In this document: one piece after another, positions 2,935 to 21,836 of the stretch
Numbering within the stretch: position 1 is the first letter of the stretch
How the letters are laid out: each line of letters starts with the position of its first letter
Source of the DNA: a virus
Virus record (IMG/VR): IMGVR_UViG_3300021478_000016
Location: 78,433 to 142,432 of that record
Strand: one strand, 5' to 3'
Length of the DNA stretch: 64,000 nt
The notes under the pieces: model-generated
Databases searched by the model: none
What the model saw: the letters and a program-made list of their open reading frames with translations, nothing else
What the model was told of the DNA's origin: nothing
Program-made: the position numbers and the translations under genes

Positions 2935-2949
2935 GTGCTATTCCTACAG

Positions 2950-2955: not shown

Positions 2956-2974
2956 CCACCAGGGAGCACTGACA

Positions 2975-4258: not shown

Positions 4259-4266
4259 GGTGGACG

Positions 4267-4941: not shown

Positions 4942-6732
4942 ATGATCTACAAGGTCAGCTACTACCTCGGCAGTGACCCGAGAGGTCCTGCCGCCATCCC
5001 CCTCTTCACAGAGAAAACGGATGGGTACTTCGAGAAGGTGGCTGCACCCAAGCTTCTGCCCGATGTGGTGAAGTACATCGAGAACCTCAAGCCCCGCAGT
5101 GACGCGCAGTACGTGCTCGTCAACGCGATGGGTGCTGGGGAGTTCTGGGGATCGAACATCAACGGAGACTACTTCCCCGAGACTGCGCTCATCCATCGAC
5201 CGGACAACTGGACAGGCAATCCACTACTCGACAAGATCCGCTCGAAGGATTGGCCGTACGGCTACCCGACCTTCTACAACGCGAAGCCCTTCCTCCACCA
5301 CCGCAACAAGGACTACCCTCCGCACAACCACCCCTCGTTCGGAGAGATCGAGCTTGCAGCTTGGAATCCGAACATGAAGCGGGTGGAGTTGGTACACAGG
5401 ATCGACAAGGACCTGTGTGCGAAGGGTGGTGGTCTGGGTCTCTGGGACAAGCTCAAGGCCGGTGACTATCCGGACACGTCGATGGGTTGCAAGGTGCCTT
5501 TCGACACGTGCTCCATCTGCCTCGACGAGCAGCGCTACAGAGAGGCTCTCGCCACGTTCGAGCCGGGCAAGCACAAGAGCCCAGGCGAGGCGGTGCTGGT
5601 CATCCACGAGAAGAAGCCCATCCGCGGTGTCTCCAAGACGCGCAACGACTACTGCTCGCACGCGCGGGACATGATGAACCGCATCTTGCCTGACGGCAGG
5701 AAGGTCTTCGTCACGAACGACTTCCCGAAGTTCTTCGACGATTCGTTCGTCTTCATCGGTGCGGACAAGACCGCCAAGATGATGATGAAGATCGCCGATG
5801 ACGAGAACTTCACGCCCACCGCTCGTGCCTTCTACGGTGTGCCGTCGGGGACAGCTACGTACTCGCCCGAGCTCGACATGAACGGCGGGGTGGACTCGTC
5901 AACCAAGCCCGAGGCAGATGAGGACATGAAGGTGGGTGAGGCCCACGACTTCGAGGCGATCCGCCTGATGTTCAAGGTCGCCGAGGCCAAGGGTGCAGAG
6001 ATGGACAAGGAGGTTGTCCCCTCCCAGTTCGCTGGCAAGGCGATTCCAGTGCTCACGCAGAAGGAGTCGGACCTGCCCAAGAGTGTCATCGACGCACTCT
6101 CGACGCGCTCTCCGGAGGAGGCTCTCTCGACGACGACGGGCATGGGGATCGTGCTTCGTCCGCACGAGTTCCAGCGGATGATGCTCAAGACCCTGGGACA
6201 GCACTCGATGGCCGACGAGCTCGAGTCTGCGGGTCTGGTCTTTCCGAAGACCAAGGACGAGGCCCCCGTGAAGATGCACAGTTCTCTCTTCAGCGACGTG
6301 CTGGCAAAGCTGCTGATTCCCCTGCTTTCAGGCCGTTCTGCATTCGGCCCGTTCATCGAGCGGCGGTGCGTCATGATCGTTGCCGGACCGGGGGGTGAGC
6401 CAGAGAAGAGGGCTTCTTCCCTTACAACGCCCCTCCTGCGTAAGATAGGAGCTGCGTACAACGGGTATCGCCGTCAGATGATGAACTTCATCACCGAATC
6501 GCAGAGCGTCCTCGCCCAGTCTTCGCTGGGTGATTCTTCGCTCTCGAAGCTTGCACACCACCCGGTGAACGAGCTATTCACTCCTCTGACGGCCGCGTAT
6601 CTCCGAGATGCCTTCATCGACGAGATGGGCGAGCTCTCAATCAAACAGGCTCACGCCGGCGTGGAGAGGGGATTCCCCTCGAGGAACACGCGAGACACCT
6701 CGAATCTAGTGGAGGATCTCCATGCCCGGTGA
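4942..6732 (+). CDS. prohead (capsid maturation) protease
   Basis: SNINGDYF, FLHHRN (His) and SMGCKVPFDTCSIC (Ser plus Zn knuckle) motifs of HK97/assemblin-fold phage proteases; lies upstream of scaffold and capsid genes. Confidence 0.8.
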   Translation: MIYKVSYYLGSDPRGPAAIPLFTEKTDGYFEKVAAPKLLPDVVKYIENLKPRSDAQYVLVNAMGAGEFWGSNINGDYFPETALIHRPDNWTGNPLLDKIRSKDWPYGYPTFYNAKPFLHHRNKDYPPHNHPSFGEIELAAWNPNMKRVELVHRIDKDLCAKGGGLGLWDKLKAGDYPDTSMGCKVPFDTCSICLDEQRYREALATFEPGKHKSPGEAVLVIHEKKPIRGVSKTRNDYCSHARDMMNRILPDGRKVFVTNDFPKFFDDSFVFIGADKTAKMMMKIADDENFTPTARAFYGVPSGTATYSPELDMNGGVDSSTKPEADEDMKVGEAHDFEAIRLMFKVAEAKGAEMDKEVVPSQFAGKAIPVLTQKESDLPKSVIDALSTRSPEEALSTTTGMGIVLRPHEFQRMMLKTLGQHSMADELESAGLVFPKTKDEAPVKMHSSLFSDVLAKLLIPLLSGRSAFGPFIERRCVMIVAGPGGEPEKRASSLTTPLLRKIGAAYNGYRRQMMNFITESQSVLAQSSLGDSSLSKLAHHPVNELFTPLTAAYLRDAFIDEMGELSIKQAHAGVERGFPSRNTRDTSNLVEDLHAR

Positions 6733-7609
6733 CATGAACGAGTTTCTGGCGGCAGCGTACGCCACGGCCCAGCCGGCACCCGTGCACACGGATGCGGCAG
6801 AGAAGGTCGCGCACGCAGAGCTGTTCGCCAAGCTGGCCGCAGAGAGCGGCCTGGACCTGACGCAGCTCACGGACGAGCAGATCGCGGCTGCCTGGAACGA
6901 GTTCCGGACGCAGGTGACGACGAAGACGGCCGAGGCGGGTCAGCCTGCGGGCCAGACCAAGGCTGCGGGCGAGCACGGTCACGCGCACAAGCACGAGCAC
7001 AAGGAAGCCGCGGCGAAGCGCGAGTTCGAGCAGACCAAGCAGGCGCAGGTCGAGTGGGAGCAGAAGAACGCCGAGGCCGACTTCCTCGGTCGTCGGATGG
7101 CCCACGCCTACGTGGACGAGCTGAAGAAGATCGCCAGCGCAACGGGCAGCCTGCCCGGTCAGACGGCGCCGGCGGCAGCTCCCGGGGAGAGCAAGGAGGC
7201 AGCGATGCCCCCGTTCCTCCAGAAGCTCAAGGGCCACGCCGCGGCAGCGGCCGGCAAGGCGAAGGACAAGGGCAAGGACGCCGTCGAGACAGCCAAGAAG
7301 CACAAGGGTCACGCCGCCGCGGCAGCCGGTGGTGCGGCAGCCGGCGCGGCCGGCGGCTTCATGGCGGGCAAGAGCAAGAAGGCGTCGGCGCTCGACGAGC
7401 TCGCGGCCCTCAAGGCGGTCGAGAAGGTCGCCGAGGCGGGTCTCGATGCGAACGAGGCGGCCGAGAAGATCGCCGCCATCTTCGGCAAGGGTGAGGTCAA
7501 GGACAGCGAGAAGATCGCGGGCGTCGAGGACTTCAACACGGCCCTCGAGGTCCGGTCTCTCGAGCTGCTCGAGCAGGTCGGCTACAAGGTCGAGTGGAAG
7601 CAGGCCTGA
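6722..7609 (+). CDS. scaffold/internal head protein (KxA-rich)
   Basis: Helical and Ala/Lys/Glu-rich; GRRMAHAYVDELKKIA; many KxA motifs. Confidence 0.65.
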   Translation: MPGDMNEFLAAAYATAQPAPVHTDAAEKVAHAELFAKLAAESGLDLTQLTDEQIAAAWNEFRTQVTTKTAEAGQPAGQTKAAGEHGHAHKHEHKEAAAKREFEQTKQAQVEWEQKNAEADFLGRRMAHAYVDELKKIASATGSLPGQTAPAAAPGESKEAAMPPFLQKLKGHAAAAAGKAKDKGKDAVETAKKHKGHAAAAAGGAAAGAAGGFMAGKSKKASALDELAALKAVEKVAEAGLDANEAAEKIAAIFGKGEVKDSEKIAGVEDFNTALEVRSLELLEQVGYKVEWKQA

Positions 7610-7631
7610 GAAGGGCGTAGGGTGAAGGACA

Positions 7632-8933
7632 GTGGTCGCCGGTCGTCTGAAGCTCGCTGAAGATCCGACGGCCCCTGTCCGCGCCCAAGCTGCTGCCTCC
7701 TCGATCCCGCAGGTCACTCTTCCGACGCTTCCCGCTCCCGCAGGCAAGAAAGGTCCAGTAGGAACTTCACCTCGAACGAATTACTCTCGAGTGAACACGG
7801 GTGCTCCGCTGGCGCCTGACGCCGGCGCGGCGGAACAAAAGAGCCTTCAACCAAAGTACGGGTCGATCATGATGAACGGAACGAGCCAAGCACACACGCC
7901 GACCCTCCAGGACATGGTCAAGGCAGCCCAGACGGGTGCCCTCAGCCGGTCCCGCATCGCGACGGAGGCCCAGCGCCAGCTCGACAACGTCGGCGGAGAG
8001 AAGACCGCCGAGGAGATGTGCGAGAAGTGCAAGAAGCCGATGGAGCACTGCACGTGCAAGGCCGAGAAGAAGGGCTCTGCCTCGAAGGTCTCGACGGCGT
8101 ACGCCACGAAGGCGGCGGAGGCTCTCGAGTATCTCGCGCACGAGCTCAAGACGGAGAAGAAGGCCGCTCCGAACGCGCCGCCTCCGCACATGACCGAGCG
8201 TACGGTGGGCCCCGGTGAGGGTCCTGGCGCGATCGAGGTCTCGCACGCGACGGCGAGCACGCCGTTGCCCGACCACAAGGGTCAGGGCCATCAGCAGCCG
8301 CCGATGAAGCCGGGTGGCGAGAAGGTCTTGAAGGGCGAGCACGGCGAGACGCAGATGGCCACGAACATGGACCATCCGACGCACGGCACGACCCCGCAGA
8401 AGACGGTCGGCAAGACCGCTGCGGCGGAGCTCTACAAGGCGAACCTCACGAAGATGCTCGGCAAGGAGGCCGCGGAGAAGGTCGTTCAGACGAAGACCGC
8501 CGCTGCGGAGCTCTACAAGAAGAACTGCGAGCGCATGGGCATCAAGGTGGCCGAGGACGCCATCTTCCCGGCGCACATCACCGCGGGTCCGGCCGTGGCT
8601 CCCGAGACGAGCCAGGCAGGTCAGCCGGGTGGCGCGCCCGCCGGCGGGATGCCGCAGGGCCGCAAGGGGACCGACAGCAACCAGTCGTCGATCGACATCA
8701 CCAAGGGCCAGGCGAAGTCCGACCCGAAGTCGGACCTCAAGAAGTGGTTCGACGAGCCGGCCCTCTCGGGGTCCACGGACTCGACGCTCAGCGCGGCCTT
8801 CGACAACACGGGTCGCGCCGGCACCAAGTACGCGAGCAAGGACGAGCAGGGCGACGAGAAGGTGGCGACGGCAGCGGCTCGCGCGCTCCTCGAGAGTCTC
8901 CTCGAGAGCGTCAAGGGCCCCAAGGCAGCCTGA
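7632..8933 (+). CDS. scaffold/internal head protein (KxA-rich, disordered)
   Basis: Many KTA/KVA/KYA motifs; duplicated KTAAAELYK; start may be 7632 (GTG) or 7869. Confidence 0.6.
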   Translation: MVAGRLKLAEDPTAPVRAQAAASSIPQVTLPTLPAPAGKKGPVGTSPRTNYSRVNTGAPLAPDAGAAEQKSLQPKYGSIMMNGTSQAHTPTLQDMVKAAQTGALSRSRIATEAQRQLDNVGGEKTAEEMCEKCKKPMEHCTCKAEKKGSASKVSTAYATKAAEALEYLAHELKTEKKAAPNAPPPHMTERTVGPGEGPGAIEVSHATASTPLPDHKGQGHQQPPMKPGGEKVLKGEHGETQMATNMDHPTHGTTPQKTVGKTAAAELYKANLTKMLGKEAAEKVVQTKTAAAELYKKNCERMGIKVAEDAIFPAHITAGPAVAPETSQAGQPGGAPAGGMPQGRKGTDSNQSSIDITKGQAKSDPKSDLKKWFDEPALSGSTDSTLSAAFDNTGRAGTKYASKDEQGDEKVATAAARALLESLLESVKGPKAA

Positions 8934-9331: not shown

Positions 9332-9856
9332 ATGTCGACGGTCCAGAGAGTCAACTTCACCCCGGTGTCGGACGTTCTCCCCATCACGCGGAGGGACTTC
9401 GCACTGGCCGACCCGACCCTGGCGAACCCCTTCAACGCCACCGCCCTGATCGACGGGGAGTGGGTCACGCTGAACTCGAGCTACCAGATCCAGCGGCCGA
9501 TGAGCATCTCGGCGGCCGGCAACGCGGCAACGGCTCGCAGCTTCCCCCTCTGGGCGGAGAAGGGTCGCTACGACGTCCAGGCCAACTCGGGTCGCAAGAT
9601 GCCGGTCATCTGGCTCGGCGAGTCCGAGTGGGACACGCGCATCTTCGACGCGACGGCCGTCGTCGGTTCGGGTGCGGCCATCACGACCGTCCTCCAGCCG
9701 CTCAAGGTCGCTTCCGTCACCATCGGCGGCGTCATCTACTCGGGCCTCGTCGGCTCGGGCGGGTCGGCGGACAGCAACCCCATCGTCGGCTACGTCACCC
9801 GGCTGCCCGCCAACAACGGTGGTCAGCTTCGTTTCCGTACGGGCTACCGCCAGTAA
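9332..9856 (+). CDS. capsid decoration/cement protein
   Basis: Beta-rich 174 aa protein immediately upstream of the capsid gene; strong RBS. Confidence 0.6.
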   Translation: MSTVQRVNFTPVSDVLPITRRDFALADPTLANPFNATALIDGEWVTLNSSYQIQRPMSISAAGNAATARSFPLWAEKGRYDVQANSGRKMPVIWLGESEWDTRIFDATAVVGSGAAITTVLQPLKVASVTIGGVIYSGLVGSGGSADSNPIVGYVTRLPANNGGQLRFRTGYRQ

Positions 9857-9898: not shown

Positions 9899-11023
9899 AT
9901 GAGCGTCCCCGCGAGAGTCATGAACGACCTCTTCACGCAGAAGCTCGGCACTGCGGAAGGCAAGGAGAAGATCGCCGAGTACGGCGGCACATACGTGCGC
10001 GACCGTCTGCGTGAGGTGAGCTACGCGCGGAAGGTCATTCCGCCGCAGCAGGTCACTCGCGCGGACTGCCAGCGGTCGGTCAACCACGACACGCTGGTGA
10101 AGATCGTGGACGTCGAGCCGCAGAGCCGCGCGCTCACGCTCACGTTCCGTGGTCAGCCGACGGCCCGCTTCATCCGCGGTCCGAAGGCCGAGGTCGCCTT
10201 CTTCACCGTCTCCTCGGAGATGTTCCAGAAGACGGAGCAGGAGCTTCTCGCCTACGAGATGCCCATCACCAAGATCATCGAGGACAACTCGGTGAAGGAC
10301 ATCCAGGAGATCGAGGACCGCGAGTTCACGATCAACATCGAGGCGGCGGTTCAGGCGCTCCAGCAGCAGGCCAACGGCGGCGCGGTGACGACGCTCAACG
10401 CGGCGTCCATCCATGCCGGCACGGTGGTCGAGTTCTCCGTCCGCAAGGGCGAGCTCGCGCGCAACTCGACGCTCGCGGGCAGCGCCACCGTCCTGCCCAT
10501 CCAGCGGCCGGACCTCGTGAACCTCTTCAAGCTGCTGGACGGCAACAGGCTGCGCTCCGAGCGCGTCCTGATGACGGAGGTCGACTGGGACGATCTGCTC
10601 CAGTGGACGGTCGAGGACTTCGGCGACCGGCTCCAGTCGGAGACGGCCGTGGACGGCTACAAGTACAACACGCTGCTCGGCCGCGCGTACATCCGCACGG
10701 TCAAGACGGACATCCTCCGTCCGGGCAACGTGTACGTCTTCACCCGTCCGGAGTTCTTCGGGAAGTTCTACGTCCTGAACAACTCGAAGTTCTACATCGA
10801 CAAGATCGCGAACATGATCACCTTCCAGGCATGGGAGGACATCGCGATCGGCATTCTCAACATCGCCGCCGTGCGCAAGCTCGAGCTCTACTCGGGCGAC
10901 GCGACGACGAACAACGCGGACGGCATCCTCGCGTCCGTGATTCCCGTGACGGAGGACCAGCTCGGTGCGGTGAACAACCAGGTCGACGCCGGCCTCCAGT
11001 TCCCGCAGGTCCAGCAGTTCTGA
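9899..11023 (+). CDS. major capsid protein (HK97 fold, encapsulin-like type)
   Basis: 374 aa; DRLREVSYARKVI N-terminus and AWEDIAIGILN C-terminal strand; head-operon position; strong RBS. Confidence 0.85.
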   Translation: MSVPARVMNDLFTQKLGTAEGKEKIAEYGGTYVRDRLREVSYARKVIPPQQVTRADCQRSVNHDTLVKIVDVEPQSRALTLTFRGQPTARFIRGPKAEVAFFTVSSEMFQKTEQELLAYEMPITKIIEDNSVKDIQEIEDREFTINIEAAVQALQQQANGGAVTTLNAASIHAGTVVEFSVRKGELARNSTLAGSATVLPIQRPDLVNLFKLLDGNRLRSERVLMTEVDWDDLLQWTVEDFGDRLQSETAVDGYKYNTLLGRAYIRTVKTDILRPGNVYVFTRPEFFGKFYVLNNSKFYIDKIANMITFQAWEDIAIGILNIAAVRKLELYSGDATTNNADGILASVIPVTEDQLGAVNNQVDAGLQFPQVQQF

Positions 11024-11102: not shown

Positions 11103-11711
11103 ATGTTCCAGATCCACAACGTTGCGCATCACCCGAAGACACGTCTCGTCCGGGCAGCGGCTCCGGTCCATGCTCGCCACAAGCAGTACATCCTGAAGAC
11201 GCAGCGCCGGCTCATTCCGAACAGGCCCATCGCAGTCACGGAAGACGAGCTGACCGAGAACCTCGAGGAGCTCAAGGCGCTCGAAGCACGAGGCATCATC
11301 GAGTGCCGACTGGCCTCTGGTGAGCTCGTGGACCTGAAGACCTTCACGGTCACAGGGTCGCTGCCGGACACCAGCAAGCCCAGGTTCCGGCAGGACAGTG
11401 CGCAGAACGACCCTCCTCGCGGCAAGAGTGCGGTCTTCACGTCCGACACCACCGAGGAGATCGCCGTGAAGGAGGGAGAGCACGCCGGCGGTGGCATGAC
11501 CGAAGAGGCCATGGCGGAAGCTGCTCTGGAGCAGGGTCTTCCCCCTCTCCCCGAGGAGCTCCAGCATCTCGAAGACGAGCCGAAGCAGGCCTCAGCGCCC
11601 GTGCCCGAGGGCAACGCCTTCGGGGGTCCTTCACCGGAGGGTGTGGACGAGGACGAGCCGGAGCAGGAGCACAAGGAACAGCCGAAGGCCAAGAAGCGTC
11701 CCCGGAGGTAA
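11103..11711 (+). CDS. hypothetical protein with acidic disordered tail
   Basis: GGAGG RBS; follows the capsid gene. Confidence 0.6.
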   Translation: MFQIHNVAHHPKTRLVRAAAPVHARHKQYILKTQRRLIPNRPIAVTEDELTENLEELKALEARGIIECRLASGELVDLKTFTVTGSLPDTSKPRFRQDSAQNDPPRGKSAVFTSDTTEEIAVKEGEHAGGGMTEEAMAEAALEQGLPPLPEELQHLEDEPKQASAPVPEGNAFGGPSPEGVDEDEPEQEHKEQPKAKKRPRR

Positions 11712-11714
11712 GCG

Positions 11715-12215
11715 GTGGCTCTCGAAGGCATCCCCCAGTCGACTCCGTGCATGCGCAGCTTCGTTGCGACTGCGCGCGAGTACATGAGAGATCACCCCGA
11801 GTTGAACCGGTTGGTCCGAGGGGAGGAGTCCAGTGACCGGCAGATTGCCTGGGCGGTTCTGGATGCGCTCTCGAGCTTCAACGGCACGCCTCCTCTCACG
11901 GCCTACATCCTCGACGAGCTGCTCATGCGCAACCAACATCACCTGCTCTTGCGCATGACCATCATCGCTCTTCTCGAGAGCGTGGCGCTTCTCCAGGTCC
12001 GCAACCACATCAACTACTCGAACGGAGGCATCAACGTCGGCGTCAACGACAAGGCACCGATGATCCTCCAGTGGCTCCAGTACTACAAGGCCTACACGGA
12101 GCAGCTCAAGCTCCGGGTGAAGGTGGCGCTCAACATCGAGAGCATTCTGGGGCCCAGCAACAGCGGCGTTCACAGTGAGCTGTGGGCCGTCAACGCGACC
12201 TACGCTGCCTACTGA
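11715..12215 (+). CDS. putative head-tail adaptor
   Basis: Helical 166 aa protein after the capsid gene, with an adaptor-like YSNGGINV beta hairpin. Confidence 0.55.
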   Translation: MALEGIPQSTPCMRSFVATAREYMRDHPELNRLVRGEESSDRQIAWAVLDALSSFNGTPPLTAYILDELLMRNQHHLLLRMTIIALLESVALLQVRNHINYSNGGINVGVNDKAPMILQWLQYYKAYTEQLKLRVKVALNIESILGPSNSGVHSELWAVNATYAAY

Positions 12216-12224
12216 GGTGGAGAG

Positions 12225-12728
12225 ATGCTCAAGGTCTACAAGTTTCGGGAGATGGATGAGATCATCGCTTTTCTCAGCGGTGCAGTCTTCGGCACGGACG
12301 TCTCGTTCTTCCGCCAGGCCATCGTCAACGGGTCAGCCGGGTACAAGGTGGCGCCCTCGCTCGTCGGGCTCACGTTCAAGACCAAGTCCCCCGGCCCAGC
12401 AGGTACCTGTACCTTCGTCGCCGGCGCTGATACGGCTGGAGGTCGTCTGACTCCCGCTGAGATCAAGACGCAGATCGAGGCAGGCATCTCCGGTCTCAAG
12501 GTGACCTTCTTCGAGGGTCGCCTTGCTATCGCCGAGGCAACGCCCGCAAGCGGCGTGACGGTGGACCACACCGGCACGTCGAACGTCGCACTCGGTTTCG
12601 ACACGAACGCCGACGTCGTGGGCAAGTTCTTCAACTCGCCCTTCAGTGGAGCGCCTCCGACGACGCCGTACATGGTCCAGGCGTACTCGGTGAACGACAA
12701 CATGCACGTGGTCTACACTTGGGAGTGA
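12225..12728 (+). CDS. putative virion structural protein
   Basis: Beta-rich; located in the structural operon. Confidence 0.5.
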   Translation: MLKVYKFREMDEIIAFLSGAVFGTDVSFFRQAIVNGSAGYKVAPSLVGLTFKTKSPGPAGTCTFVAGADTAGGRLTPAEIKTQIEAGISGLKVTFFEGRLAIAEATPASGVTVDHTGTSNVALGFDTNADVVGKFFNSPFSGAPPTTPYMVQAYSVNDNMHVVYTWE

Positions 12729-12736: not shown

Positions 12737-15106
12737 ATGGCGACGGCATTCGACCCCATGTTCCGGCAGGGCCCTTCGATGGGCGAGGGTGCGGACTTCT
12801 TCCTCAAGCTGAAGAAGTTCGCGGAAGATCCGGCGACGGGTCCGGCGGAGCCGATGGCTTCGTCGGGAGCTCCGTTCCAGGACCAGGTCCTCGAGCTGAT
12901 GCTCAACATGGTCCAGAACGAGTTCAAGACCATGCTCGCCTACAAGACCTACGCGCAGACGCTGCGTGGGCCCGAGCACTTCGGTGTGGCGAAGGAGTTC
13001 GAGGAGCATGCCGAGAACGAGATCGAGCATGCCGACTTCTTGCTCCGCCGTCTCTCGGTGCTGATGGGTGGTCCGGTGCCGGTGCCGGACATCCCAGCTC
13101 CCGAGCCTCTCGACTCCTGCGAGGACATCATTCATGCGATGATCGCCATGGAGCAGGAGGGCATCAAGAACTGGCAGAACCTCCTCTCGATGCTGGGCGA
13201 CAACCCGACGAAGTACAAGGTCGAGGAGTTCCTGGCGCGGGAGCTGCACCATGTCGACGAGCTCTTCCAGCTTCTTCCCTCCGAGACCGCGCAGGCGCAG
13301 CAACCGCAGCCTGGTGGCTCCACTTCTGCTCCTCCTGCTGCTCCTCCTGCTGCTCCTCCTGCTGCTGAACAGCCCGAAGCTCCGCCGGCTACTCCTCAAG
13401 CTGGTGATGGACCTCAGGCCGGGCAGCCGCCCGGTCTGAAGCTCTCGAGCGTCAAGACCGCTGCGCGTCAGCGCTTCACGCGGGACGACAAGGGAAACAT
13501 CGTTCAGATCCCCGCTCGCTACGAGGGCAACCCCGAAGACCCGGGCTCGTTCTCGAGCGCCCTCGACGAGGCGTTCAAGTACGCGTGCAAGACCGCCGGC
13601 ATCAAGATCCCCGCTCCATCCCACGACAGCACCAAGGGCAGCTCCGAAGCCAAGACGCCGAACGGTGCCCAGAACCTCGACGTCTTCGACGCCGGCGGCA
13701 AGGAGGCATCCAACACGGGCCTCGGCAAGCCGCCGGTCGTCCCGATGGAGAACGAGCCGACGAGCGACGCGAAGGATCCGCAGGAGGAGACGAAGCAGGC
13801 AGCCGCTGCTCCCGAGCATCTTCGCAAGGCGAAGGAACGCGGTGAGGCCAATGCTGTCGCGCGCTCCACGCAGATGAAGGGTCAGCGCGGAGAGCTCTAC
13901 GGAGACCTCGTCGGCCGCCTTCTCGGCGGTGCTGCTGGTTGGAAGGCGGGCAAGACTCTCGCTGGCAAGAGTGGAAGCACGCTCGCTCGCGTCATGGGGG
14001 TCGGCATGGCCCAGGCTGCGGGCGGCCGGGTGGGGAAGCAGATCGGGAGAGAGGCCGACGCTGCACGCGCCAAGAAGAAGTACGGCGCAGCCCTCATCGA
14101 GAGCCTGCCGTCCTTCCTCAAGACCGCCCTCGAGGACGAGATGAACATGCTCGCCCAAGAGCAGGCGGCAGAGCAGGCGGAGATGGCCAACGCCGGCCGC
14201 TTCTACGCGACCCGCGCGCAAGAGCACGCGCAGGCCCGACAGGCGCTCGAGCAGCAGCTCCAGCAGGCGCAGTCGGACCTGGAGCAGAAGGAGACGTCGA
14301 TCCAGCAGATGCAGGAGGCCATGGCCGCCAACTCGTCGGCTGCGAGCGAGTCCACGACCAGCGCCATGCTCCAGGCCGTCAACTCGAATACACAGGCCAT
14401 CCAGCAACGGCAGCTCGCCTCCGACGCGGCCAACGCGAACATGACCCTGCGCGACCAGCTCCGTCAGCTCGCCGACGGACCGAGCGACGGCAACCCGCAG
14501 GGCCCCGGTGACATCCAGGGTGCCGTCCAGGGACCCTCAGGCGGCCCGACCTCCGGCAACGGGGAGAAGGAGCTCCAGGACGGTCCGGGCAGCGCCCCGC
14601 CGGCTGGCGAGAGCAACGCCTACCAGCCCATCCAGAGCCCCGAGAGCGGGCTAGCCAAGGGCGAGCCTGGACGCGTCGTGGGCATCGCCGGCGACAGCCG
14701 GCAGCCCTCCACGCCCTCGGCCTACAAGGACGGCGGGCAGGGCAAGCAGGCGGGCCTCCAGCTCCCGCCGGACGTCAAGGCGAAGCTCCGCGGCATGGGT
14801 CTGGGCGCCGCGGCCGGGGCCGGCGTGCTCGGTGGGGCGACGGCCATCGAGGCGGCACGGGGACCCGGACCGGTGCGCGAGAAGGTGGAGAAGCTCGAGG
14901 CGAAGCCGGAGAGTTTCCGCAACTCGATGCAGACCGCGCAGGCGAAGGGGCATCTCGCGTTCCGCGAGGCAGTGGCAGAGCATCCGGTAGCCGCGACGGC
15001 GGCCTCGATGCTTCCTGGTGCTGCGCTCGGGGCATCTCTCGGTCCGGCGGCGGTGAGCGCCGGCAAGAAGGTCATCCAGAACATCAAGGCGCTCCGCGCT
15101 CAGTGA
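12737..15106 (+). CDS. multi-segment internal head protein with an N-terminal ferritin-like (bacterioferritin/rubrerythrin) domain
   Basis: Four-helix pattern NEFKTMLAY / ENEIEHA / MEQEGI / RELHHVDEL, then KxA-delimited glycine-zipper and coiled-coil segments. Confidence 0.75.
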   Translation: MATAFDPMFRQGPSMGEGADFFLKLKKFAEDPATGPAEPMASSGAPFQDQVLELMLNMVQNEFKTMLAYKTYAQTLRGPEHFGVAKEFEEHAENEIEHADFLLRRLSVLMGGPVPVPDIPAPEPLDSCEDIIHAMIAMEQEGIKNWQNLLSMLGDNPTKYKVEEFLARELHHVDELFQLLPSETAQAQQPQPGGSTSAPPAAPPAAPPAAEQPEAPPATPQAGDGPQAGQPPGLKLSSVKTAARQRFTRDDKGNIVQIPARYEGNPEDPGSFSSALDEAFKYACKTAGIKIPAPSHDSTKGSSEAKTPNGAQNLDVFDAGGKEASNTGLGKPPVVPMENEPTSDAKDPQEETKQAAAAPEHLRKAKERGEANAVARSTQMKGQRGELYGDLVGRLLGGAAGWKAGKTLAGKSGSTLARVMGVGMAQAAGGRVGKQIGREADAARAKKKYGAALIESLPSFLKTALEDEMNMLAQEQAAEQAEMANAGRFYATRAQEHAQARQALEQQLQQAQSDLEQKETSIQQMQEAMAANSSAASESTTSAMLQAVNSNTQAIQQRQLASDAANANMTLRDQLRQLADGPSDGNPQGPGDIQGAVQGPSGGPTSGNGEKELQDGPGSAPPAGESNAYQPIQSPESGLAKGEPGRVVGIAGDSRQPSTPSAYKDGGQGKQAGLQLPPDVKAKLRGMGLGAAAGAGVLGGATAIEAARGPGPVREKVEKLEAKPESFRNSMQTAQAKGHLAFREAVAEHPVAATAASMLPGAALGASLGPAAVSAGKKVIQNIKALRAQ
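13326..13361 (+). repeat. 12-bp tandem repeat x3 (CTGCTCCTCCTG) encoding a Pro/Ala linker
   Basis: Direct inspection. Confidence 0.9.
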
Positions 15107-15113: not shown

Positions 15114-16118
15114 ATGCTCGACTCGTTCCTGGCAGCCGCCTACGACAACACGAAGAAGAACGAGGAGAAGCGCGCGATGGTCGACGCGCTCAAGAAGTTG
15201 CCGGCGCCCTTCCTCGCGAAGCTCGCGAGTCGAGAGGTGAAGCTCGGCGACATCTTCAGCGCCCCGAACTGTTCCAAAGACGGCGACGAGAGCTGGCTCG
15301 GCAAGTTCAAGGGCACGCCGCTGGCAGAGCAGGCGATGCAGCTCGAACAGGCCGAGCTCCAGCTCGAGATGCAGCGACTCGAGAACCAGCAGCAGAGCCG
15401 GGCGGAGAGCCAGGCCAGCAACTCGATCTGGGACCAGCAAGACCAGCTCCGCCTCCAGAAGAAGCTCCTCGAGCTTCAGCTCTACCAGATGGAGCTCGAG
15501 GGGGAGCATGCAGCCATGGCACCACCCGCGACCGTCGACACTCAGAAGAAGAAGCCGATCCCGGAGGCAGGCAATCCGGGTGCTGGCTCGATGGGCCCGG
15601 AGGCCGAGAACAGCGAAGAGAACATGGCTCCGGTGGGCACTCGGGGTCCCGGCGATGCCAAGACGGCTTCGCTGAAGAAGCTCAGCGAGAGCCCGATGGG
15701 CAAGATCGCCGACGCCTGGGGTCGTGAGCTCGCACGCTCCGACATGCAGAAGACCGCCCTGCCCTCGATGGGCACTCTCGCCGGCGCCGGCAAGAGCATG
15801 CTCTCGGGCGCCAAGGGCATCTGGGGCGCTCTGCCGTCAGCTCAGAAGACCAAGATGCTCGGCGGTGCTGCGGTGGGTGCTCTCGGTGGTGCAGCAGCGA
15901 CCGGCCACGATCAACAGGGCTTCCACCCGCTGCGCGCCATCGGCGGAGCTCTCGGAGGCGCTGCCCTCGGCGGTGCCGCAGGCGGGGCGGCGCACAACAT
16001 CGCCGAGAAGGGTCTCGCCGGCGGCATCTCGCAGAGCGTGCAGCAGGGCAAGAACATCGGTGGCTTCCTCGCTGGGCAGGCCCGCGCTGCGATGCCGGGC
16101 CTCTCCCCAAAAGTCTGA
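15114..16118 (+). CDS. KxA-motif internal head protein with coiled coil and glycine zippers
   Basis: KLA/KTA/KIA motifs; GGAAVGALGGAAA and GGALGGAALGGAAGG segments. Confidence 0.65.
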   Translation: MLDSFLAAAYDNTKKNEEKRAMVDALKKLPAPFLAKLASREVKLGDIFSAPNCSKDGDESWLGKFKGTPLAEQAMQLEQAELQLEMQRLENQQQSRAESQASNSIWDQQDQLRLQKKLLELQLYQMELEGEHAAMAPPATVDTQKKKPIPEAGNPGAGSMGPEAENSEENMAPVGTRGPGDAKTASLKKLSESPMGKIADAWGRELARSDMQKTALPSMGTLAGAGKSMLSGAKGIWGALPSAQKTKMLGGAAVGALGGAAATGHDQQGFHPLRAIGGALGGAALGGAAGGAAHNIAEKGLAGGISQSVQQGKNIGGFLAGQARAAMPGLSPKV

Positions 16119-16136
16119 CCGGGGTCCCAGCCCCGG
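16106..16136 (+). promoter_or_regulatory. predicted -1 programmed ribosomal frameshift signal
   Basis: C CCA AAA slippery heptamer, 6-nt spacer, then CCGGGG/CCCCGG stem; the -1 frame is open to 16561. Confidence 0.65.
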
Positions 16137-16189
16137 CTCCCAGTCAGCTCCCAACGGTCGCTCGCGCACCTGCACGTGCCCCCACATCG

Positions 16190-16561
16190 ATGGCACCGAC
16201 ACAACTCGCGCCAGGAGGAACGAAGATGTCCCCGGGAGTAGTCCCCGCTCCCGGCAAGAGCCACTCGCTCGCTGTCGGAGAGAGCTTCCAGAAGATGTAC
16301 GAAGGCCTCGACTCGAACATGCAGAAGACGATCTCCTCTCTGCCTCTCGTGTCGCAAGGCCATCTCAGTCCCGCAGCCGCGCTCAACATCCTGCACTACG
16401 ACAAGAAGCCCGGAGAGCAGCTCGGCGACGTCGTCTCGCGCGTCGCTCTTCCGAGCTCCATCCCCTCAGCGCCTGGTGGGTCCTCGATTCGACCGCGCTC
16501 CATGGCCACCGTCGGCCCGCGCCCACGCAGCTCGTCTGCGTTCGCCACCGGAATCGGATGA
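16190..16561 (+). CDS. Pro/Ser-rich ORF; probable -1 frameshift extension of 15114..16118, or independent start at 16226
   Basis: Open in the -1 frame from 16106; an alternative AGGAGG RBS precedes ATG 16226. Confidence 0.55.
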   Translation: MAPTQLAPGGTKMSPGVVPAPGKSHSLAVGESFQKMYEGLDSNMQKTISSLPLVSQGHLSPAAALNILHYDKKPGEQLGDVVSRVALPSSIPSAPGGSSIRPRSMATVGPRPRSSSAFATGIG

Positions 16562-16562
16562 C

Positions 16563-17480
16563 ATGCCCGTCTCGATCGAGGTCATCAAGCTCAAGGTTCG
16601 GTCCCTCGACCGGAACCTGATTGAGATCTCCTGGGAGCTCAAGAGCACCCAGGAGGATGTCTTCGACTATCAGTTCCAGATCTACCGCAGTGAGTCGCCG
16701 AGTGGACCCTGGGACATCATCTCGGTCCCCTTCCAGGACGAGTACCTCTTCATCGACAACGCCATCTGGGTCGGAGATCGATGGAGGATGCTGCACTATC
16801 AGGTGCGGGTCATCCACGTTCCGACAGGAGACACGAAGGACTTCGGCCCCGTGACCCAAGAGGCAGAGCCCGACCTCATCGCCCTCGAGCTGCGCCGCCA
16901 CACCCAGCTCCTCTTCCACGAGTACGCTGGTCGCAAGTGCTGGGTCTTGCCGATCCGCACCTTCGGTCCTCGCTGCGAGTGCTGGGACAACCGCCTCCAG
17001 AAGAAGACCCGGTCCCGCTGCGAGCTCTGCTTCGACACCGGCTTCGTGCGAGGGTACCTGTCCCCCATCGAGGTCTGGATGCAGGTCGATCCCTCACCGA
17101 AGACGAACCAGGTGACGAACGTGGGCACGATGCAGCAGTCGAATACGACTGCGCGAGTCGGCTACTACCCGCCGCTCAGACCGAACGACCTCATCGTCGA
17201 ACCGGAGAACCGCCGCTGGCGTGTCATCCAGGTCAACCAGACGGAGCAAGGTCGGGCCGCAGTCCATCAAGAGCTCCAGCTTCACGAGATTCCCCATCGT
17301 GACATCGAGTACGCTGTGCCGCTTCTCTTGGACCAGGCGCTCAAGGACATCTGGTTCTCCCCGCCGCGCAACTTCACGATGCCGACCAATCTCCAGAACG
17401 TGGAAGACACCGACATCCTCGACCCGTTCTCCATCTACCCGGCGCAGATCCCCGACCCCTCCAGCTTCGGTAAGGGATGA
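16563..17480 (+). CDS. putative head-closure/neck protein with N-terminal Fn3-like domain and Cys cluster
   Basis: ISW..YQFQIYRSESPSGPW Fn3-like strands, RCECWD..RCELCFDTGF, and a C-terminal LRPNDLIVE..RWRV barrel. Confidence 0.6.
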   Translation: MPVSIEVIKLKVRSLDRNLIEISWELKSTQEDVFDYQFQIYRSESPSGPWDIISVPFQDEYLFIDNAIWVGDRWRMLHYQVRVIHVPTGDTKDFGPVTQEAEPDLIALELRRHTQLLFHEYAGRKCWVLPIRTFGPRCECWDNRLQKKTRSRCELCFDTGFVRGYLSPIEVWMQVDPSPKTNQVTNVGTMQQSNTTARVGYYPPLRPNDLIVEPENRRWRVIQVNQTEQGRAAVHQELQLHEIPHRDIEYAVPLLLDQALKDIWFSPPRNFTMPTNLQNVEDTDILDPFSIYPAQIPDPSSFGKG

Positions 17481-18962: not shown

Positions 18963-21836
18963 ATGGCGTCGAGTGGCCTGCCGCAACCCGGGGTCGAAGT
19001 CATTCAGGTCTTCCAGACGGTCAGCCCCACCGTCATCACCCCGACGCTCGTTCCGTGCGTCGTCGGCGCCTGCAAACAGGTCGTCGATGCTGTGGTGCCG
19101 AGCGCCACGGGCAGCACCCAGGTGAACTCGGGGGCGCAGGTCGAGAAACCTGCCACGCTCACGGCCATCGCCGCAACGGGCGGACCTCCGGTCGTCTACA
19201 CGCTGAACGGGAACCTCAAGTTCGCGTCCGATGGGCTGCCGACCGTGACCGTGAACTTCGTGAGCGGTACGTACACGCCGCAACAGGTGGTCACCATGGT
19301 CAACGCCGCGATCCTCGCGGCGGGTCAGTCCAACCTCGTCGCCGAGCTCGTGGGCACCACGCAGTGGCGCCTGCGCACGCTCTCGGAGACGGACTTCGAC
19401 TTCATCTCGGTCGACCCGACTTCGACGTCCGGCGTGCTCACGGCGTTCGGCTTCTTCGGCAACGAGTTCAAGTCCGGCGCGGCTTCGTACCACCAGTTCC
19501 AGGTCACGATCCCCACACCGTCGTTCCCGGACCCGAACAACAACCTCGCGCAGCTCGCCATCGATACGACCACCATCCGTGGATTCCTCGGCATCTCGGG
19601 CAACGCTGCTCTTCAGGAGGCGCTGCGCACGCAGACCGTCCTGCGCAAGGGTGGCGCCACGACGGTGATCGATAGTGGAAACGGAACCGGCTTCTCGAAC
19701 ATCATCCAGGCCGCAGGACAGGACTTCACGTCCCTGTCTACGGTGGCCACGGTGGCGTCCGTGACCGGCTCGGCAACGCCGACGTTCGGCAGCCTGGCGG
19801 GCAAGACCCTGGTCGTCTCGGATGGACGTGAGCCCATCACAGTCACGTTCGGGACGTGCGCGGTCATCGGCGATGTCGTCGCACAATTCAACGCGTTCTT
19901 CAGCGCGACGGACGGCATCCTCGCCTCGGCCTCGGGCACGGACCTCACGCTCACCAGCACGCGCCTGCGTGAGGATGGCCTGACGACCGCTCTCGGTGAG
20001 GACAGCTCGATCGTCCTGCTCGGCGGCAGCGCACTGTACCCGACCAACCTCCTCGATCCGGGTGGCACGCCGACCCTCCACATCGGCCGCTACACCGGCA
20101 GCCCGATGGCTGTCTTCCCCGGCGACCAGCTCTTCATCGACGGTGTTCTCGTCGGCGTCATCAACCAGGTCGCTCCGAACGGACAGAACGCGCAGCTCCG
20201 CGTCAACGCGAACAAGCCACTCTCGTTCACCGGCAGCCACTTCTACATCGTGGCGACGAGCCTCGCGGCTCTGCCCGGAGAAACAGCGAACCGCCCGCGT
20301 CCCGACTTCATCGTGGATGCGAACGGCAACGCGACGTTCAAGCACGGCCTGCTGCGAGACTCGAATGGAGTCGTCGTCGAGTCGCTCCAGACGTCGGCCC
20401 TCGTCGAGCCGAGCAGCAACATGTACATCGCGTACAAGGCGCTGCGACTCGATGTCTCGAGCAGGGCGACGAACCCGGGTCTGCTCCAGTTCAGCGACAC
20501 GGCGACGCTCCAGAGCCAGCTCGCTCCCATCACGACGGACAACCCGCTGGGTCTCGGTCTCTACTTCGCCCTGCTCAATGCACCGGCGGTGCAGATCACC
20601 GGTCTGGGTGTGGACGCAGTGTCTCCGAGCGAGCCGTTCGGCACCCTGGCAGCGTTCACGGATGCGGCGACGTTCCTCGAGCAGTTCGAGGTGTACGCCA
20701 TCGCGCCCCTGACGCACGAGACGACGGTCCATCAGGTCTTCCAGACCCACGTCGACACGATGAGCGCGCCCGAGAACAAGGGTGAACGCATCGTGCTCGT
20801 CAATCCGAGCAAGCCCGTCAACCGGCTCAATGCGCTGGTGGCATCCGGCACGGACGGCAACACGATCGGCACGGGCGGCCTGACCTTCGACACGGGCATC
20901 GCCAACCTGACCGCGCTGCTCGTCGCTGCGGGGATCTCGAACCCGGCCTCCATCCCGGTGAGCTCGGGCGTCTTCCTCAACATCAGCGACAACAACCTCA
21001 ACTACAACGTCTCGGCGGTGAGCGGGTCGGTCGTGACGGTGAACATCACCTTCACGGGCAGCCAGAACACCGACGGCTTCTTCTCGACGACGGACCTCAA
21101 GACTCCGCCGCTCCCATCGGCGCTCATCGAGGACCCGTTCTCCATCAAGGTCCGCGGCACGCCGCTGGTCTTGACGGACGGCATCACGCCGGACAAGCCG
21201 AGCATCGCCTCGACCATCACGGCCATGGCGCAGGCGTTCCTCGACCGCCGCGTGTGGATGGTCGTGCCCGATACGTGCGCCGCCACTCTCGGTGGGGTGG
21301 AGCAGGTCCTCGACGGCTTCTACATGTGCGCGGCCATCGCGGGCATGATCGGTCAGCAGCCTCCGCAGCAGTCGTTCACCAACTTCCCGATGACTGGCTT
21401 CACGCGCGTCATCGGCTCGAACGACTTCTTCACGCCGCAGCAGATGAACCAGATGGCTGGTGGCGGCGCGTACATCATCCTCCAGGACGTGAAGGGCGTC
21501 AGCCCGCTGTACTCGCGTATGGCGCTGACCACCGACCTCACGTCCATCGAGACGAGGACGGACAGCATCACGAAGATCGTGGACTTCTGCGCGAAGTTCT
21601 ACCGCACCGGTCTGAAGAACTTCATCGGGCGGTTCAACATCAACCAGGGTCTCCTCGACTCACTGGGTCACGTGCTCCAGGGTCTCACGGGATTCCTCAC
21701 GGAGTCCGGCGTCCTCATCGGCGCGCACGTGAACAACTTGATCCAGGACACCGCGGCTCCCGACACCGTGCTCGTCGACATCACGCTCGACGTGCCATTC
21801 CCCTGCAATTACATCCGCATCACGCTCGTCATCTGA
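18963..21836 (+). CDS. contractile tail sheath protein
   Basis: N-terminal QPGVEV, C-terminal VDITLDVPFPCNYIRITL; 957 aa. Confidence 0.9.
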   Translation: MASSGLPQPGVEVIQVFQTVSPTVITPTLVPCVVGACKQVVDAVVPSATGSTQVNSGAQVEKPATLTAIAATGGPPVVYTLNGNLKFASDGLPTVTVNFVSGTYTPQQVVTMVNAAILAAGQSNLVAELVGTTQWRLRTLSETDFDFISVDPTSTSGVLTAFGFFGNEFKSGAASYHQFQVTIPTPSFPDPNNNLAQLAIDTTTIRGFLGISGNAALQEALRTQTVLRKGGATTVIDSGNGTGFSNIIQAAGQDFTSLSTVATVASVTGSATPTFGSLAGKTLVVSDGREPITVTFGTCAVIGDVVAQFNAFFSATDGILASASGTDLTLTSTRLREDGLTTALGEDSSIVLLGGSALYPTNLLDPGGTPTLHIGRYTGSPMAVFPGDQLFIDGVLVGVINQVAPNGQNAQLRVNANKPLSFTGSHFYIVATSLAALPGETANRPRPDFIVDANGNATFKHGLLRDSNGVVVESLQTSALVEPSSNMYIAYKALRLDVSSRATNPGLLQFSDTATLQSQLAPITTDNPLGLGLYFALLNAPAVQITGLGVDAVSPSEPFGTLAAFTDAATFLEQFEVYAIAPLTHETTVHQVFQTHVDTMSAPENKGERIVLVNPSKPVNRLNALVASGTDGNTIGTGGLTFDTGIANLTALLVAAGISNPASIPVSSGVFLNISDNNLNYNVSAVSGSVVTVNITFTGSQNTDGFFSTTDLKTPPLPSALIEDPFSIKVRGTPLVLTDGITPDKPSIASTITAMAQAFLDRRVWMVVPDTCAATLGGVEQVLDGFYMCAAIAGMIGQQPPQQSFTNFPMTGFTRVIGSNDFFTPQQMNQMAGGGAYIILQDVKGVSPLYSRMALTTDLTSIETRTDSITKIVDFCAKFYRTGLKNFIGRFNINQGLLDSLGHVLQGLTGFLTESGVLIGAHVNNLIQDTAAPDTVLVDITLDVPFPCNYIRITLVI

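What the first reader, a model, noticed from the sequence alone, without database searches (positions are those of the whole stretch)
12881..13278. Intact ferritin-like diiron domain as apparent cargo of an encapsulin-like phage capsid
Seen: the four ferroxidase elements E(x6)Y, ExxH, E and ExxH lie in a domain bounded by KKFA upstream and VKTAA downstream, inside a head-operon protein less than 2 kb from the capsid gene. Known: encapsulins are HK97-fold shells whose classic cargo is ferritin-like protein (for example M. xanthus EncA with EncB/C). Inference: the phage packages a releasable iron-binding or antioxidant domain in its head, either to protect DNA from Fenton chemistry or to deliver it to the host. 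This would be a functional link between phage capsids and encapsulin compartments.
Basis: partly seen in the sequence, partly recalled or inferred. Interest (0 to 1): 0.8.

Follow-up and report, generated by a model that had tools for sequence, protein, structure and literature searches.

The report
Ferritin-headed structural-module protein of soil phages
A large uncultured soil phage carries a real iron-oxidising ferritin-type domain at the front of a long protein encoded between its capsid and tail-sheath genes; about 190 sequence clusters from related phages do the same, but whether the domain is packed into the virus head is still unproven.

Summary
Window 12737-15106 (+) encodes a 789-aa protein. 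Residues 46-180 are a genuine ferritin-like four-helix bundle (Pfam Ferritin E 2e-13; AF2 pLDDT >90; Z 16-17 to solved ferritin-like chains). All diiron ligands are present: E62, Y69, E95/H98, E139, E169/H172.

It is closest to Dps-like proteins (PA4880) and mini-bacterioferritins, not to the two-helix encapsulated ferritins. It has no encapsulin cargo peptide, and the capsid protein shows nothing specifically encapsulin-like.

The gene is a fixed member of the structural module (capsid, three small genes, this gene, two genes, sheath) in all 18 related loci mapped. At least 193 clusters at 50% identity share the N-terminal ferritin layout.

A leader ending in K-x-A, and a second K-x-A-[S/A] about 40 residues after the domain, are conserved in otherwise hypervariable sequence. 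K-x-A is four times denser in the head module than elsewhere in the genome. This fits protease release inside the prohead, but it is inference.

Caveat: one old clade, about a quarter of the family, has lost two iron ligands yet keeps the domain.

Virion association is not shown. The scan has noted the same theme (ferritin-family domains with leaders in phage head modules) on other phage DNA. I found no paper describing it.

The parts
12737..15106 (+). Whole gene: 789-aa protein with an N-terminal ferritin-like domain (P0001)
   Evidence: Open frame and translation. There are 38 full-length homologues and at least 193 clusters at 50% identity with E<=1e-30 and the same N-terminal layout.
12737..12823 (+). 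N-terminal leader, residues 1-29, ending in LKLK-K-F-A (K-x-A). Candidate targeting or propeptide segment.
   Evidence: Leader recognised in 130 of 171 family members. K26 is present in 146 of 171 and Ala two residues later in 102 of 171. Similar short leaders ending in K-x-A occur on neighbouring head-module proteins.
12872..13276 (+). Ferritin-like four-helix bundle, residues 46-180. Diiron ligands are E62, E95, H98, E139, E169 and H172, plus Y69.
   Evidence: Pfam PF00210 E 2.2e-13. AF2 pLDDT >90. Foldseek and VIA-align matches to DpsL, mini-bacterioferritin and 2qqy. It is the most conserved part of the protein.
13277..13816 (+). Hypervariable Pro/Ala/Gln-rich linker, residues 181-360
   Evidence: Lowest column identity and many gaps. 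pLDDT <50.
13454..13462 (+). K240-T-A242 (VKTAA): conserved K-x-A-[A/S] motif after the domain. Candidate cleavage site.
   Evidence: The first Lys after the domain lies in K-x-A in 97 of 168 family members, against about 17% expected from Ala content. The motif is followed by S or A in 98 of 165. Median position is 37 residues after the domain end.
13817..14116 (+). Basic Gly/Ala-rich helices with GxxxGxxxG motifs, residues 361-460
   Evidence: Composition, net charge +12 and glycine-zipper motifs. Helices 360-449 in the model at pLDDT 65-78.
14117..14476 (+). Gln/Ala-rich long helices (coiled-coil-like), residues 461-580
   Evidence: Helices 458-579 in the model. Module found in 155 of 171 family members.
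14762..15103 (+). C-terminal Ala/Gly-rich helical module with a basic tail, residues 676-789
   Evidence: pLDDT up to 95. Two mildly hydrophobic glycine-zipper segments, 686-708 and 750-776, and net charge +8. Found at the extreme C-terminus in 126 of 171 members. Found only fused to ferritin.
9899..11023 (+). Major capsid protein (context)
   Evidence: phrog_2522 E 8.6e-9. 28% identical to the Arash capsid protein gp226. PDB profile hit to the phage capsid protein 6wkk, E 2.4e-4.
11103..12728 (+). Three small conserved genes between the capsid gene and the ferritin gene (202, 166 and 167 aa). The middle one is homologous to Arash gp233, which is annotated 'structural protein' in the Arash record.
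   Evidence: Synteny in 18 loci. Mapping to Arash. No family or PDB sequence hit.
15114..17480 (+). Two downstream conserved genes (334 aa each). The second is homologous to Arash gp234, which is annotated 'structural protein' in the Arash record.
18963..21836 (+). Tail sheath (context). It marks the downstream limit of the head-neck block.
   Evidence: phrog_279 E 4.6e-8. tblastn hits to Arash gp236 and to the phage G tail sheath.

Best explanation
The gene encodes a virion pro-protein of a roughly 190-kb soil myovirus, made late together with the head and neck proteins.

Shown: its N-terminal 180 residues are a short leader plus a complete Dps-like/bacterioferritin-type diiron four-helix bundle that is predicted to form the usual ferritin two-fold dimer.

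Inferred: the leader and/or the basic C-terminal helical module take the protein into the assembling prohead. There the head-maturation protease cuts at the conserved K-x-A sites, after about residue 29 and after about residue 242. This frees a ferritin domain of about 210 residues inside the capsid.

Inferred function: the freed domain oxidises Fe(II) with O2 or H2O2, as DpsL proteins do. That would keep Fenton chemistry away from the packed DNA, or away from the DNA and proteins that enter the host. The glycine-zipper and coiled-coil remainder would serve as an internal or ejection scaffold.
For: 1. Genuine, conserved enzyme-type domain. All seven site residues are invariant in the 32 nearest homologues and in 119 of 171 family representatives. 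It is the most conserved part of an otherwise fast-evolving protein.

2. Fixed place in the structural module. The order capsid, three small genes, this gene, two genes, sheath holds in all 18 loci mapped, including the ligand-loss clade. Genes flanking it are homologous to Arash gp233 and gp234, both annotated 'structural protein' in the Arash record.

3. Relatives load large proteins into virions. By mass spectrometry, Arash particles contain RNA polymerase subunits and a 2548-aa protein encoded between capsid and sheath, at very high spectral counts (PMC10585845).

4. Processing signature. The K-x-A-[S/A] motif is conserved about 37 residues after the domain, in 97 of 168 members against about 17% expected. 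The leader ends in L-K-x-A. K-x-A density is 15.1 per 1000 aa in the head module against 3.7 elsewhere. It falls within the first 40 residues of 8 of 14 head-module proteins against 20 of 129 others.

5. Self-association. In the four-copy model of residues 40-185, ipSAE is 0.78 against a best control of 0.00. That mark was reached by 20 of 30 proteins solved as pairs of one chain and by 1 of 23 solved as single chains. The runs agree in >=95% of contacts and partner pLDDT is >=81. The interface is helices A/B plus the B-C loop. Ferritin dimers are solved structures, so this pass may reflect likeness only.

6. The nearest solved relative, PA4880 DpsL, oxidises Fe2+ with O2 or H2O2 and stores Fe3+ (PMC11150526).
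Against: - There is no direct evidence that the protein is in virions, is cleaved, or binds iron.
- The head protease was not identified.
- K-x-A is not enriched in this protein as a whole: 8 observed against 7.4 expected. Only its positions are conserved.
- A well-supported clade of 46 of 171 representatives has E62K, H98A/G and E169D. It is as diverse as the intact clade and keeps the same synteny. The domain therefore persists without a canonical diiron site.
- Short stand-alone relatives of the domain sit beside RecA and DNA-ligase genes, not head genes, in other phage-like contigs. An intracellular role exists in this lineage.
- The gene lies after the head-completion-type genes and before the sheath. 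A neck or tail location fits that position equally well.
Confidence: 0.45

Rival explanations
1. It is a structural protein on the outside of the particle or in the neck or tail, such as a whisker, collar or fibre, or an ejection-channel component. In this reading the ferritin fold serves mainly as a stable dimerising or oligomerising head-piece, and iron chemistry is secondary or lost.
For: - The gene sits between head-completion-type genes and the sheath. From my own knowledge of the T4 gene map, T4 fibritin sits next to its neck genes.
- The protein has long Gln-rich helices at 458-579 and glycine-zipper segments.
- About 27% of the family lost two Fe ligands in one old clade but kept the fold and the synteny.
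- The dimer interface is predicted with confidence: 0.78 against a best control of 0.00, a mark reached by 20 of 30 solved one-chain pairs and 1 of 23 single chains, possibly through likeness to solved ferritin dimers.
Against: - In 119 of 171 representatives all seven site residues are kept, and the domain is the most conserved part of the protein. That argues for chemistry rather than packing alone.
- About 45% of the chain is predicted disordered, Pro/Gly-rich linker, which is unusual for a fibre.
- The conserved K-x-A motifs at both domain borders are not explained by this reading.
Confidence: 0.25
2. It is a late-expressed, non-virion helper. It would be a phage ferritin that buffers iron or peroxide in the infected cell while DNA is replicated and packaged, tethered by its long tail to the assembly site or membrane.
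For: - Short stand-alone relatives of the domain lie next to RecA and DNA-ligase genes in phage-like contigs.
- Free-standing Dps/ferritin-like genes in phage replication regions are reported for Lactobacillus plantarum myoviruses (PMC6669764).
- DpsL proteins protect against iron and peroxide stress (PMC11150526).
Against: - The gene is strictly syntenic inside the structural block in all 18 loci mapped, with 8-9-nt gaps to its neighbours.
- The leader and K-x-A signature are shared with head-module proteins.
- The C-terminal module is never found apart from the ferritin domain.
Confidence: 0.2
3. It is a true encapsulin-type system. In this reading the domain is homologous to encapsulin ferritin cargo and is loaded by an encapsulin-like cargo peptide into an encapsulin-like shell.
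For: Only the general fact that encapsulins and phage capsids share the HK97 fold and that encapsulins load ferritin-like cargo (PMC5012862 and PMC11202242, listed).
Against: - The domain is a four-helix bundle with an intrasubunit site, not a two-helix EncFtn. No EncFtn chain appears among the best 60 PDB profile hits.
- No cargo-peptide motif occurs in this protein or in the last 60 residues of any family member.
- The capsid protein has no Pfam encapsulin hit at E<=5 and matches only a phage capsid protein in PDB.
Confidence: 0.03

Closest known systems
Dps-like proteins (DpsL): P. aeruginosa PA4880 (8w1d/8w1e; PMC11150526) and Sulfolobus solfataricus DPSL (2clb)
   Same: They are the best sequence matches (profile E 1.5e-14 and 6e-11) and strong fold matches (Z 16.3, rmsd 2.3 A, 138 aligned). 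They share the bacterioferritin-type diiron site buried in one subunit and the E-x-x-x-H-x-x-x-E-x-x-H pattern on helix B.
   Different: The model shows no helix in the B-C loop, which is a Pro-rich coil at 111-127. The single Cys is not conserved. A leader and about 600 extra residues are fused to the domain. A 12-mer was not tested. The setting is a phage structural module.
Mini-bacterioferritin (Mper-mBfr, 9qq4; PMC13168243)
   Same: Both are bare four-helix bundles without an E helix and with a canonical diiron site. Z 16.6, rmsd 2.1 A, 134 aligned.
   Different: The haem-ligand Met after the helix-B Glu is absent: Ile96 here and L/T/Q/R/I across the family. His29 of mBfr corresponds to Ala73. 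mBfr has no terminal extensions, whereas this domain is embedded in a 789-aa chain.
Encapsulated ferritins and ferritin-like cargo of Family 1 encapsulins (EncFtn; M. xanthus EncB/C)
   Same: The idea is the same: an iron-oxidising ferritin-family domain possibly enclosed in an HK97-fold shell and addressed by a short terminal peptide.
   Different: The sub-fold differs (two-helix half-ferritin with an intersubunit site). EncFtn carries a C-terminal cargo peptide, which is absent here. The shell gene here is a phage capsid protein within a full tailed-phage module.
T4 internal proteins (IPI-III, Alt), with an N-terminal capsid-targeting sequence removed by the prohead protease gp21. This comparison rests on my own knowledge and was not checked in a paper here.
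   Same: A short N-terminal leader ends in a small-residue cleavage-type motif and is shared by several head-module proteins.
   Different: The motif is K-x-A-[S/A], not L/I-x-E. The protease was not identified. Neither cleavage nor packaging has been shown.
Ferritin-like DNA-binding protein gp346 of Bacillus megaphage G, reported in particle proteomics (bioRxiv 10.1101/2024.12.16.628780)
   Same: It is a precedent for a ferritin-family protein detected in a large-phage particle.
   Different: [quoted passage not shown]

Membership tests
Ferritin-like superfamily (Pfam PF00210) | Four-helix bundle with a long B-C crossover loop | tested here: met
   AF2 helices 46-75, 79-110, 128-153 and 158-178 at pLDDT >90. 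Z 16-17 to solved ferritin-like chains. Pfam score 50.8 bits against a cut-off of 24.5.
Ferritin-like superfamily (Pfam PF00210) | Canonical diiron ligands: Glu (helix A), ExxH (helix B), Glu (helix C), ExxH (helix D) | tested here: met
   E62, E95/H98, E139 and E169/H172 plus Y69 are invariant in 32 homologues. However, 47 of 171 family representatives carry K62, A/G98 and D169.
Dps-like (DpsL) | Bacterioferritin-type site within one subunit | tested here: met
   Alignment to PA4880. Definition taken from PMC11150526 and PMC13168243.
Dps-like (DpsL) | Extra short helix in the B-C loop (PMC13168243) | tested here: not met
   DSSP of the model shows coil at residues 111-127, a Pro-rich stretch. 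This rests on the model only.
Dps-like (DpsL) | 12-mer cage | tested here: inconclusive
   Only the two-fold dimer interface was scored: 0.78 against a best control of 0.00. That mark was reached by 20 of 30 solved one-chain pairs and 1 of 23 single chains, and the pass may reflect likeness to solved ferritins. A 12-copy model exceeds the tool's size limit.
Mini-bacterioferritin (mBfr) | Strictly conserved haem-binding Met after the helix-B Glu | tested here: not met
   Ile96 here. L, T, Q, R or I across the family.
Mini-bacterioferritin (mBfr) | No N- or C-terminal extensions | tested here: not met
   A 45-residue N-terminal segment and about 600 C-terminal residues are fused to the domain.
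Bacterioferritin / ferritin (24-mer) | C-terminal E helix | tested here: not met
   Helix D ends at residue 178 and is followed by a disordered linker.
Encapsulated ferritin / Family 1 encapsulin cargo | Two-helix half-ferritin with the ferroxidase centre at a dimer interface (PMC5012862 abstract) | tested here: not met
   The domain is a full four-helix bundle with all ligands in one chain.
Encapsulated ferritin / Family 1 encapsulin cargo | C-terminal cargo-loading peptide (GSL-type motif, recalled from my own knowledge) | tested here: not met
   A regex scan of the protein, and of the last 60 residues of 171 family members, gave 0 hits.
Encapsulated ferritin / Family 1 encapsulin cargo | Adjacent encapsulin shell gene (Pfam Linocin_M18 type) | tested here: not met
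   The capsid protein has no such Pfam hit at E<=5. Its only PDB profile hit is a phage capsid protein. The fold model of the capsid protein failed (pLDDT 37), so no structural comparison was possible.
Protease-processed, leader-targeted phage head internal proteins (T4 IP type) | N-terminal leader ending in the phage's protease site and shared with other head proteins | tested here: inconclusive
   The leader and K-x-A are conserved. The protease and its specificity are unknown.
Protease-processed, leader-targeted phage head internal proteins (T4 IP type) | Presence in the mature head and cleavage | not testable with these tools
   No cultured member exists: tblastn of this protein and blastn of the region found no match in the phage record collection. 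The nearest cultured relative, Arash, shows no ferritin homologue in that search.

The most novel reading that the evidence does not exclude
A whole clade of large soil phages uses its capsid as an encapsulin-like iron and oxidant-handling compartment. A DpsL-type ferritin domain would be addressed to the prohead by a leader or tail, cut free at K-x-A sites by the maturation protease, and assembled into a mini-ferritin next to the packed DNA. This would have arisen independently of encapsulin cargo systems, as convergent evolution.
Probability: 0.35. Interest if true: 0.8.

Novelty: new variant of a known kind. Interest (0 to 1): 0.6.

Why it matters
If the domain is really loaded into heads, tailed-phage capsids and encapsulins share a function as well as a shell fold: enclosing a ferritin-type enzyme. 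That would have been reached by different cargo domains and different addressing signals. It would also give an antioxidant or iron-handling role to virions that persist in soil.

The family is large, with at least 193 clusters at 50% identity. It also contains a natural control, an old clade without two iron ligands. Both features make the question testable by expression, iron assays and particle proteomics.

Even if the domain is only structural, a ferritin fold as a fixed part of a phage structural-module protein is, as far as my searches of the paper library went, undescribed.

Tried and rejected
- PHROGs: no family for this protein.
- tblastn and blastn against 50,697 phage records: no match.
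- ESM Atlas on residues 360-789: no usable hit, all TM <0.3.
- Homologue search with residues 380-789 alone: only ferritin-fused proteins, so no stand-alone ancestor of the tail was found.
- BLASTP among 23 window proteins: no paralogue.
- hhalign of the family profile against Arash gp229 and gp230, the large virion proteins in the equivalent region: probability <1%.
- Profile searches of PDB sequences for the neighbouring genes 11715-12215, 12225-12728 and 9332-9856: nothing credible.
- Pfam at E<=5 on ten head-module proteins: nothing, so portal, protease and scaffold are not formally identified.
- AF2 model of the capsid protein from 16 orthologues: failed with mean pLDDT 36.9, so the 'encapsulin-like' claim could not be tested by fold.
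- Tape-measure reading: rejected, because the gene lies upstream of the sheath and tube genes.
I used only the simpler K-x-A statistics.
- VIA-align on the full model reported ferritin matches only. The C-terminal modules were barely tested, so nothing can be said about their fold.
Full report
**What is there**

The window is the last 64 kb of a 142-kb IMG/VR virus record. CheckV estimates the record at 76% complete, implying a genome of about 190 kb. GC content is 62%.

The finding lies in one open frame, 12737-15106 (+), 789 aa. The gene is packed 8-9 nt from its neighbours in a one-directional block.
- E62-x6-Y69, E95-x-x-H98, E139 and E169-x-x-H172.
- KKFA at residues 26-29.
- VKTAA at residues 239-243.

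**The domain is real**

- Pfam Ferritin scores E 2.2e-13 (50.8 bits; cut-off 24.5), and Rubrerythrin scores 2e-5.
- The single sequence finds the Dps-like protein PA4880 (8w1d) at 1.3e-8, followed by 2qqy and bacterioferritins.
- A 15-sequence family profile gives PA4880 at 1.5e-14, Sulfolobus DPSL at 6e-11, frog M-ferritin at 9e-11, mini-bacterioferritin at 8e-10 and Bfr at 6e-8. No encapsulated ferritin appears among the best 60 hits.
- The AF2 model of the whole protein has pLDDT >90 for residues 46-178. It shows four helices, a long Pro-rich B-C loop and no fifth helix.
- Foldseek and VIA-align agree with this: 2qqy Z 17.2 / 1.8 A / 136 aligned, 9qq4 Z 16.6, 8w1d Z 16.3.

**Which ferritin**

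I used the feature table of Wissink et al. 2026 (PMC13168243).
- The domain has the canonical intrasubunit site of DpsL, mBfr and Bfr.
- It lacks the DpsL B-C-loop helix in the model.
- It lacks the mBfr/Bfr haem Met (Ile96 here; L/T/Q/R/I in the family).
- It lacks the Bfr/Ftn E helix.

It is therefore a separate branch nearest DpsL. PA4880 DpsL oxidises Fe2+ with O2 or H2O2, stores Fe3+ and nicks DNA in vitro (PMC11150526).

A four-copy model of residues 40-185 supports the classical two-fold ferritin dimer through helices A/B and the B-C loop.
- ipSAE was 0.78 against a best control of 0.00. That mark was reached by 20 of 30 proteins solved as pairs of one chain and by 1 of 23 solved as single chains.
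- The runs agree in >=95% of contacts, and partner pLDDT is >=81.
- Ferritin dimers are solved structures, so this may show likeness only.
- A 12-mer could not be tested.

**The family**

The first homologue search gave 38 proteins of 500-1150 aa, all with the ferritin domain at the N-terminus. They sit on contigs of up to 199 kb.

An exhaustive profile search gave 1541 hits at E<=1e-3 and 193 at E<=1e-30. Nearly all of the best 150 are 400-1340 aa long, with the domain at residues about 5-185.

Within the protein, the ferritin domain is by far the most conserved part, and residues 181-360 are hypervariable. The family layout, out of 171 representatives, is:
- leader, in 130;
- ferritin domain, in 171;
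- variable linker;
- basic Gly-rich helices;
- Gln-rich long helices, in 155;
- Gly/Pro linker;
- Ala/Gly-rich C-terminal helical module with a basic tail, in 126, always at the very end.

The tail was never found without the ferritin domain.

**Context**

In the 18 loci mapped by tblastn the gene order is constant, and the gene-length pattern of two further loci from the ligand-loss clade fits it. The order is:
1. the 501-aa gene;
2. the 224-aa gene;
3. the 596-aa gene (homologous to Arash gp222);
4. the 295-aa gene;
5. the 433-aa gene;
6. the 174-aa gene;
7. the capsid gene;
8. the 202-, 166- and 167-aa genes;
9. this gene;
10. two 334-aa genes;
11. the sheath gene;
12. the 251-aa gene (homologous to Arash gp237).

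The sheath is identified by phrog_279 (E 4.6e-8) and by hits to the phage G sheath. Because the gene lies upstream of the sheath, it is not in a tape-measure position.

The nearest cultured phage is Salmonella phage Arash, with capsid and sheath about 28% identical.
- By mass spectrometry its particles contain RNA polymerase subunits and a 2548-aa protein encoded between capsid and sheath. These are among the most abundant species (PMC10585845).
- tblastn of this protein against the phage record collection, which includes Arash, found no match, so Arash appears to lack a ferritin homologue.
- Its large proteins in this region are unrelated to this one.

**Signs of processing**

K-x-A is not enriched in this protein overall: 8 observed against 7.4 expected. 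Its positions, however, are conserved.
- The leader ends in L-K-x-A. K26 is present in 146 of 171 members, and Ala two residues later in 102 of 171.
- In the hypervariable linker, the first Lys after the domain lies in K-x-A in 97 of 168 members, where Ala content predicts about 17%.
- That motif is followed by Ser or Ala in 98 of 165 members. Its median position is 37 residues after the domain.

Genome-wide, K-x-A occurs at 15.1 per 1000 aa in the head module against 3.7 elsewhere. It falls in the first 40 residues of 8 of 14 head-module proteins against 20 of 129 others. Several of these proteins start with similar short hydrophobic leaders.

This fits the first readers' idea of a maturation-protease code. 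I could not identify the protease, so cleavage remains an inference.

**A caveat that changes the reading**

In 47 of the 171 representatives, E62 is Lys, H98 is Ala or Gly, and E169 is Asp. These changes remove the terminal ligands of one iron.
- Forty-six of the 47 form one clade (FastTree support 0.994; 2 Fitch changes).
- That clade is as diverse as the intact clade (mean pairwise identity 0.53) and keeps the same synteny.

The fold is therefore retained for a long time without a canonical diiron site. Either that clade has a new chemistry, or the domain also has a structural role.

In addition, short stand-alone relatives of the domain sit next to RecA and DNA-ligase genes in other phage-like contigs.

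**The encapsulin link**

- The capsid protein shows no Pfam encapsulin hit even at E<=5.
- Its only PDB profile hit is a phage capsid protein (6wkk, 2.4e-4).
- My fold model of it failed (pLDDT 37).
- No encapsulin cargo-peptide motif exists in the protein or the family.

The link to encapsulins is therefore an analogy of function at most, not homology of the cargo system.

**Verdict**

Head packaging, iron binding and release are unproven, and 'encapsulin-like' is not supported.

My probabilities are:
- head-loaded, protease-released ferroxidase domain, 0.45;
- structural neck, tail or outer role with the fold as an oligomerising head-piece, 0.25;
- non-virion late helper, 0.2.

In the paper library I found no description of a ferritin fold fused into a phage structural-module protein. 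The nearest precedent is the ferritin-like DNA-binding protein reported in phage G particles.

The scan itself has noted the same theme on other phage DNA. I treat those AI notes as leads, not as support.

Noticed in passing
window 2753-8933 and the whole genome: K-x-A is strongly enriched in several head-module proteins: 13 observed against 2.6 expected in 2753-4258, 15 against 7.8 in 6722-7609, and 13 against 6.6 in 7632-8933. It is absent from the terminase. Density is 15.1 per 1000 aa in the head module against 3.7 elsewhere.
   Followed up: partly
window 4267, 6722, 7632, 15114, 24059, 60373, 60760, 61214; genome C1 36144 and 57624: Many proteins begin with a short hydrophobic or aromatic leader ending in K-[ITL]-A followed by small residues, for example ..FLDELEKIAASS and ..FIDEFEKISNAGG. 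This may be a shared targeting or propeptide signal.
   Followed up: partly
window 21854-22462: An HNH endonuclease with an HTH domain (HNH_3 E 3.7e-12) is inserted between the sheath gene and the tube-like gene. Related loci carry HNH genes at other places in the module.
   Followed up: no
L003:1-2406 and L024:134-2998: In two related phages the 596-aa portal-sized gene is enlarged to about 950 aa and carries weak Hint/intein and LAGLIDADG hits. This suggests an intein in a head gene.
   Followed up: no
The distant relative Arash has RNA polymerase subunits as its most abundant particle proteins.
   Followed up: no
family representatives P0109-P0166 (e.g. L023, L024): One clade of the ferritin-fusion family carries E62K, H98A/G, E169D and W146Q together. 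This is a coordinated remodelling of one metal site, not random decay.
   Followed up: partly
window 2753-4258: The 501-aa protein just after the terminase has a weak tape-measure-family hit (phrog_794, E 7.9e-6, residues 344-465) and a weaker tail-lysin hit (phrog_1047, E 0.012, residues 396-481), even though it sits in the head module.
   Followed up: no
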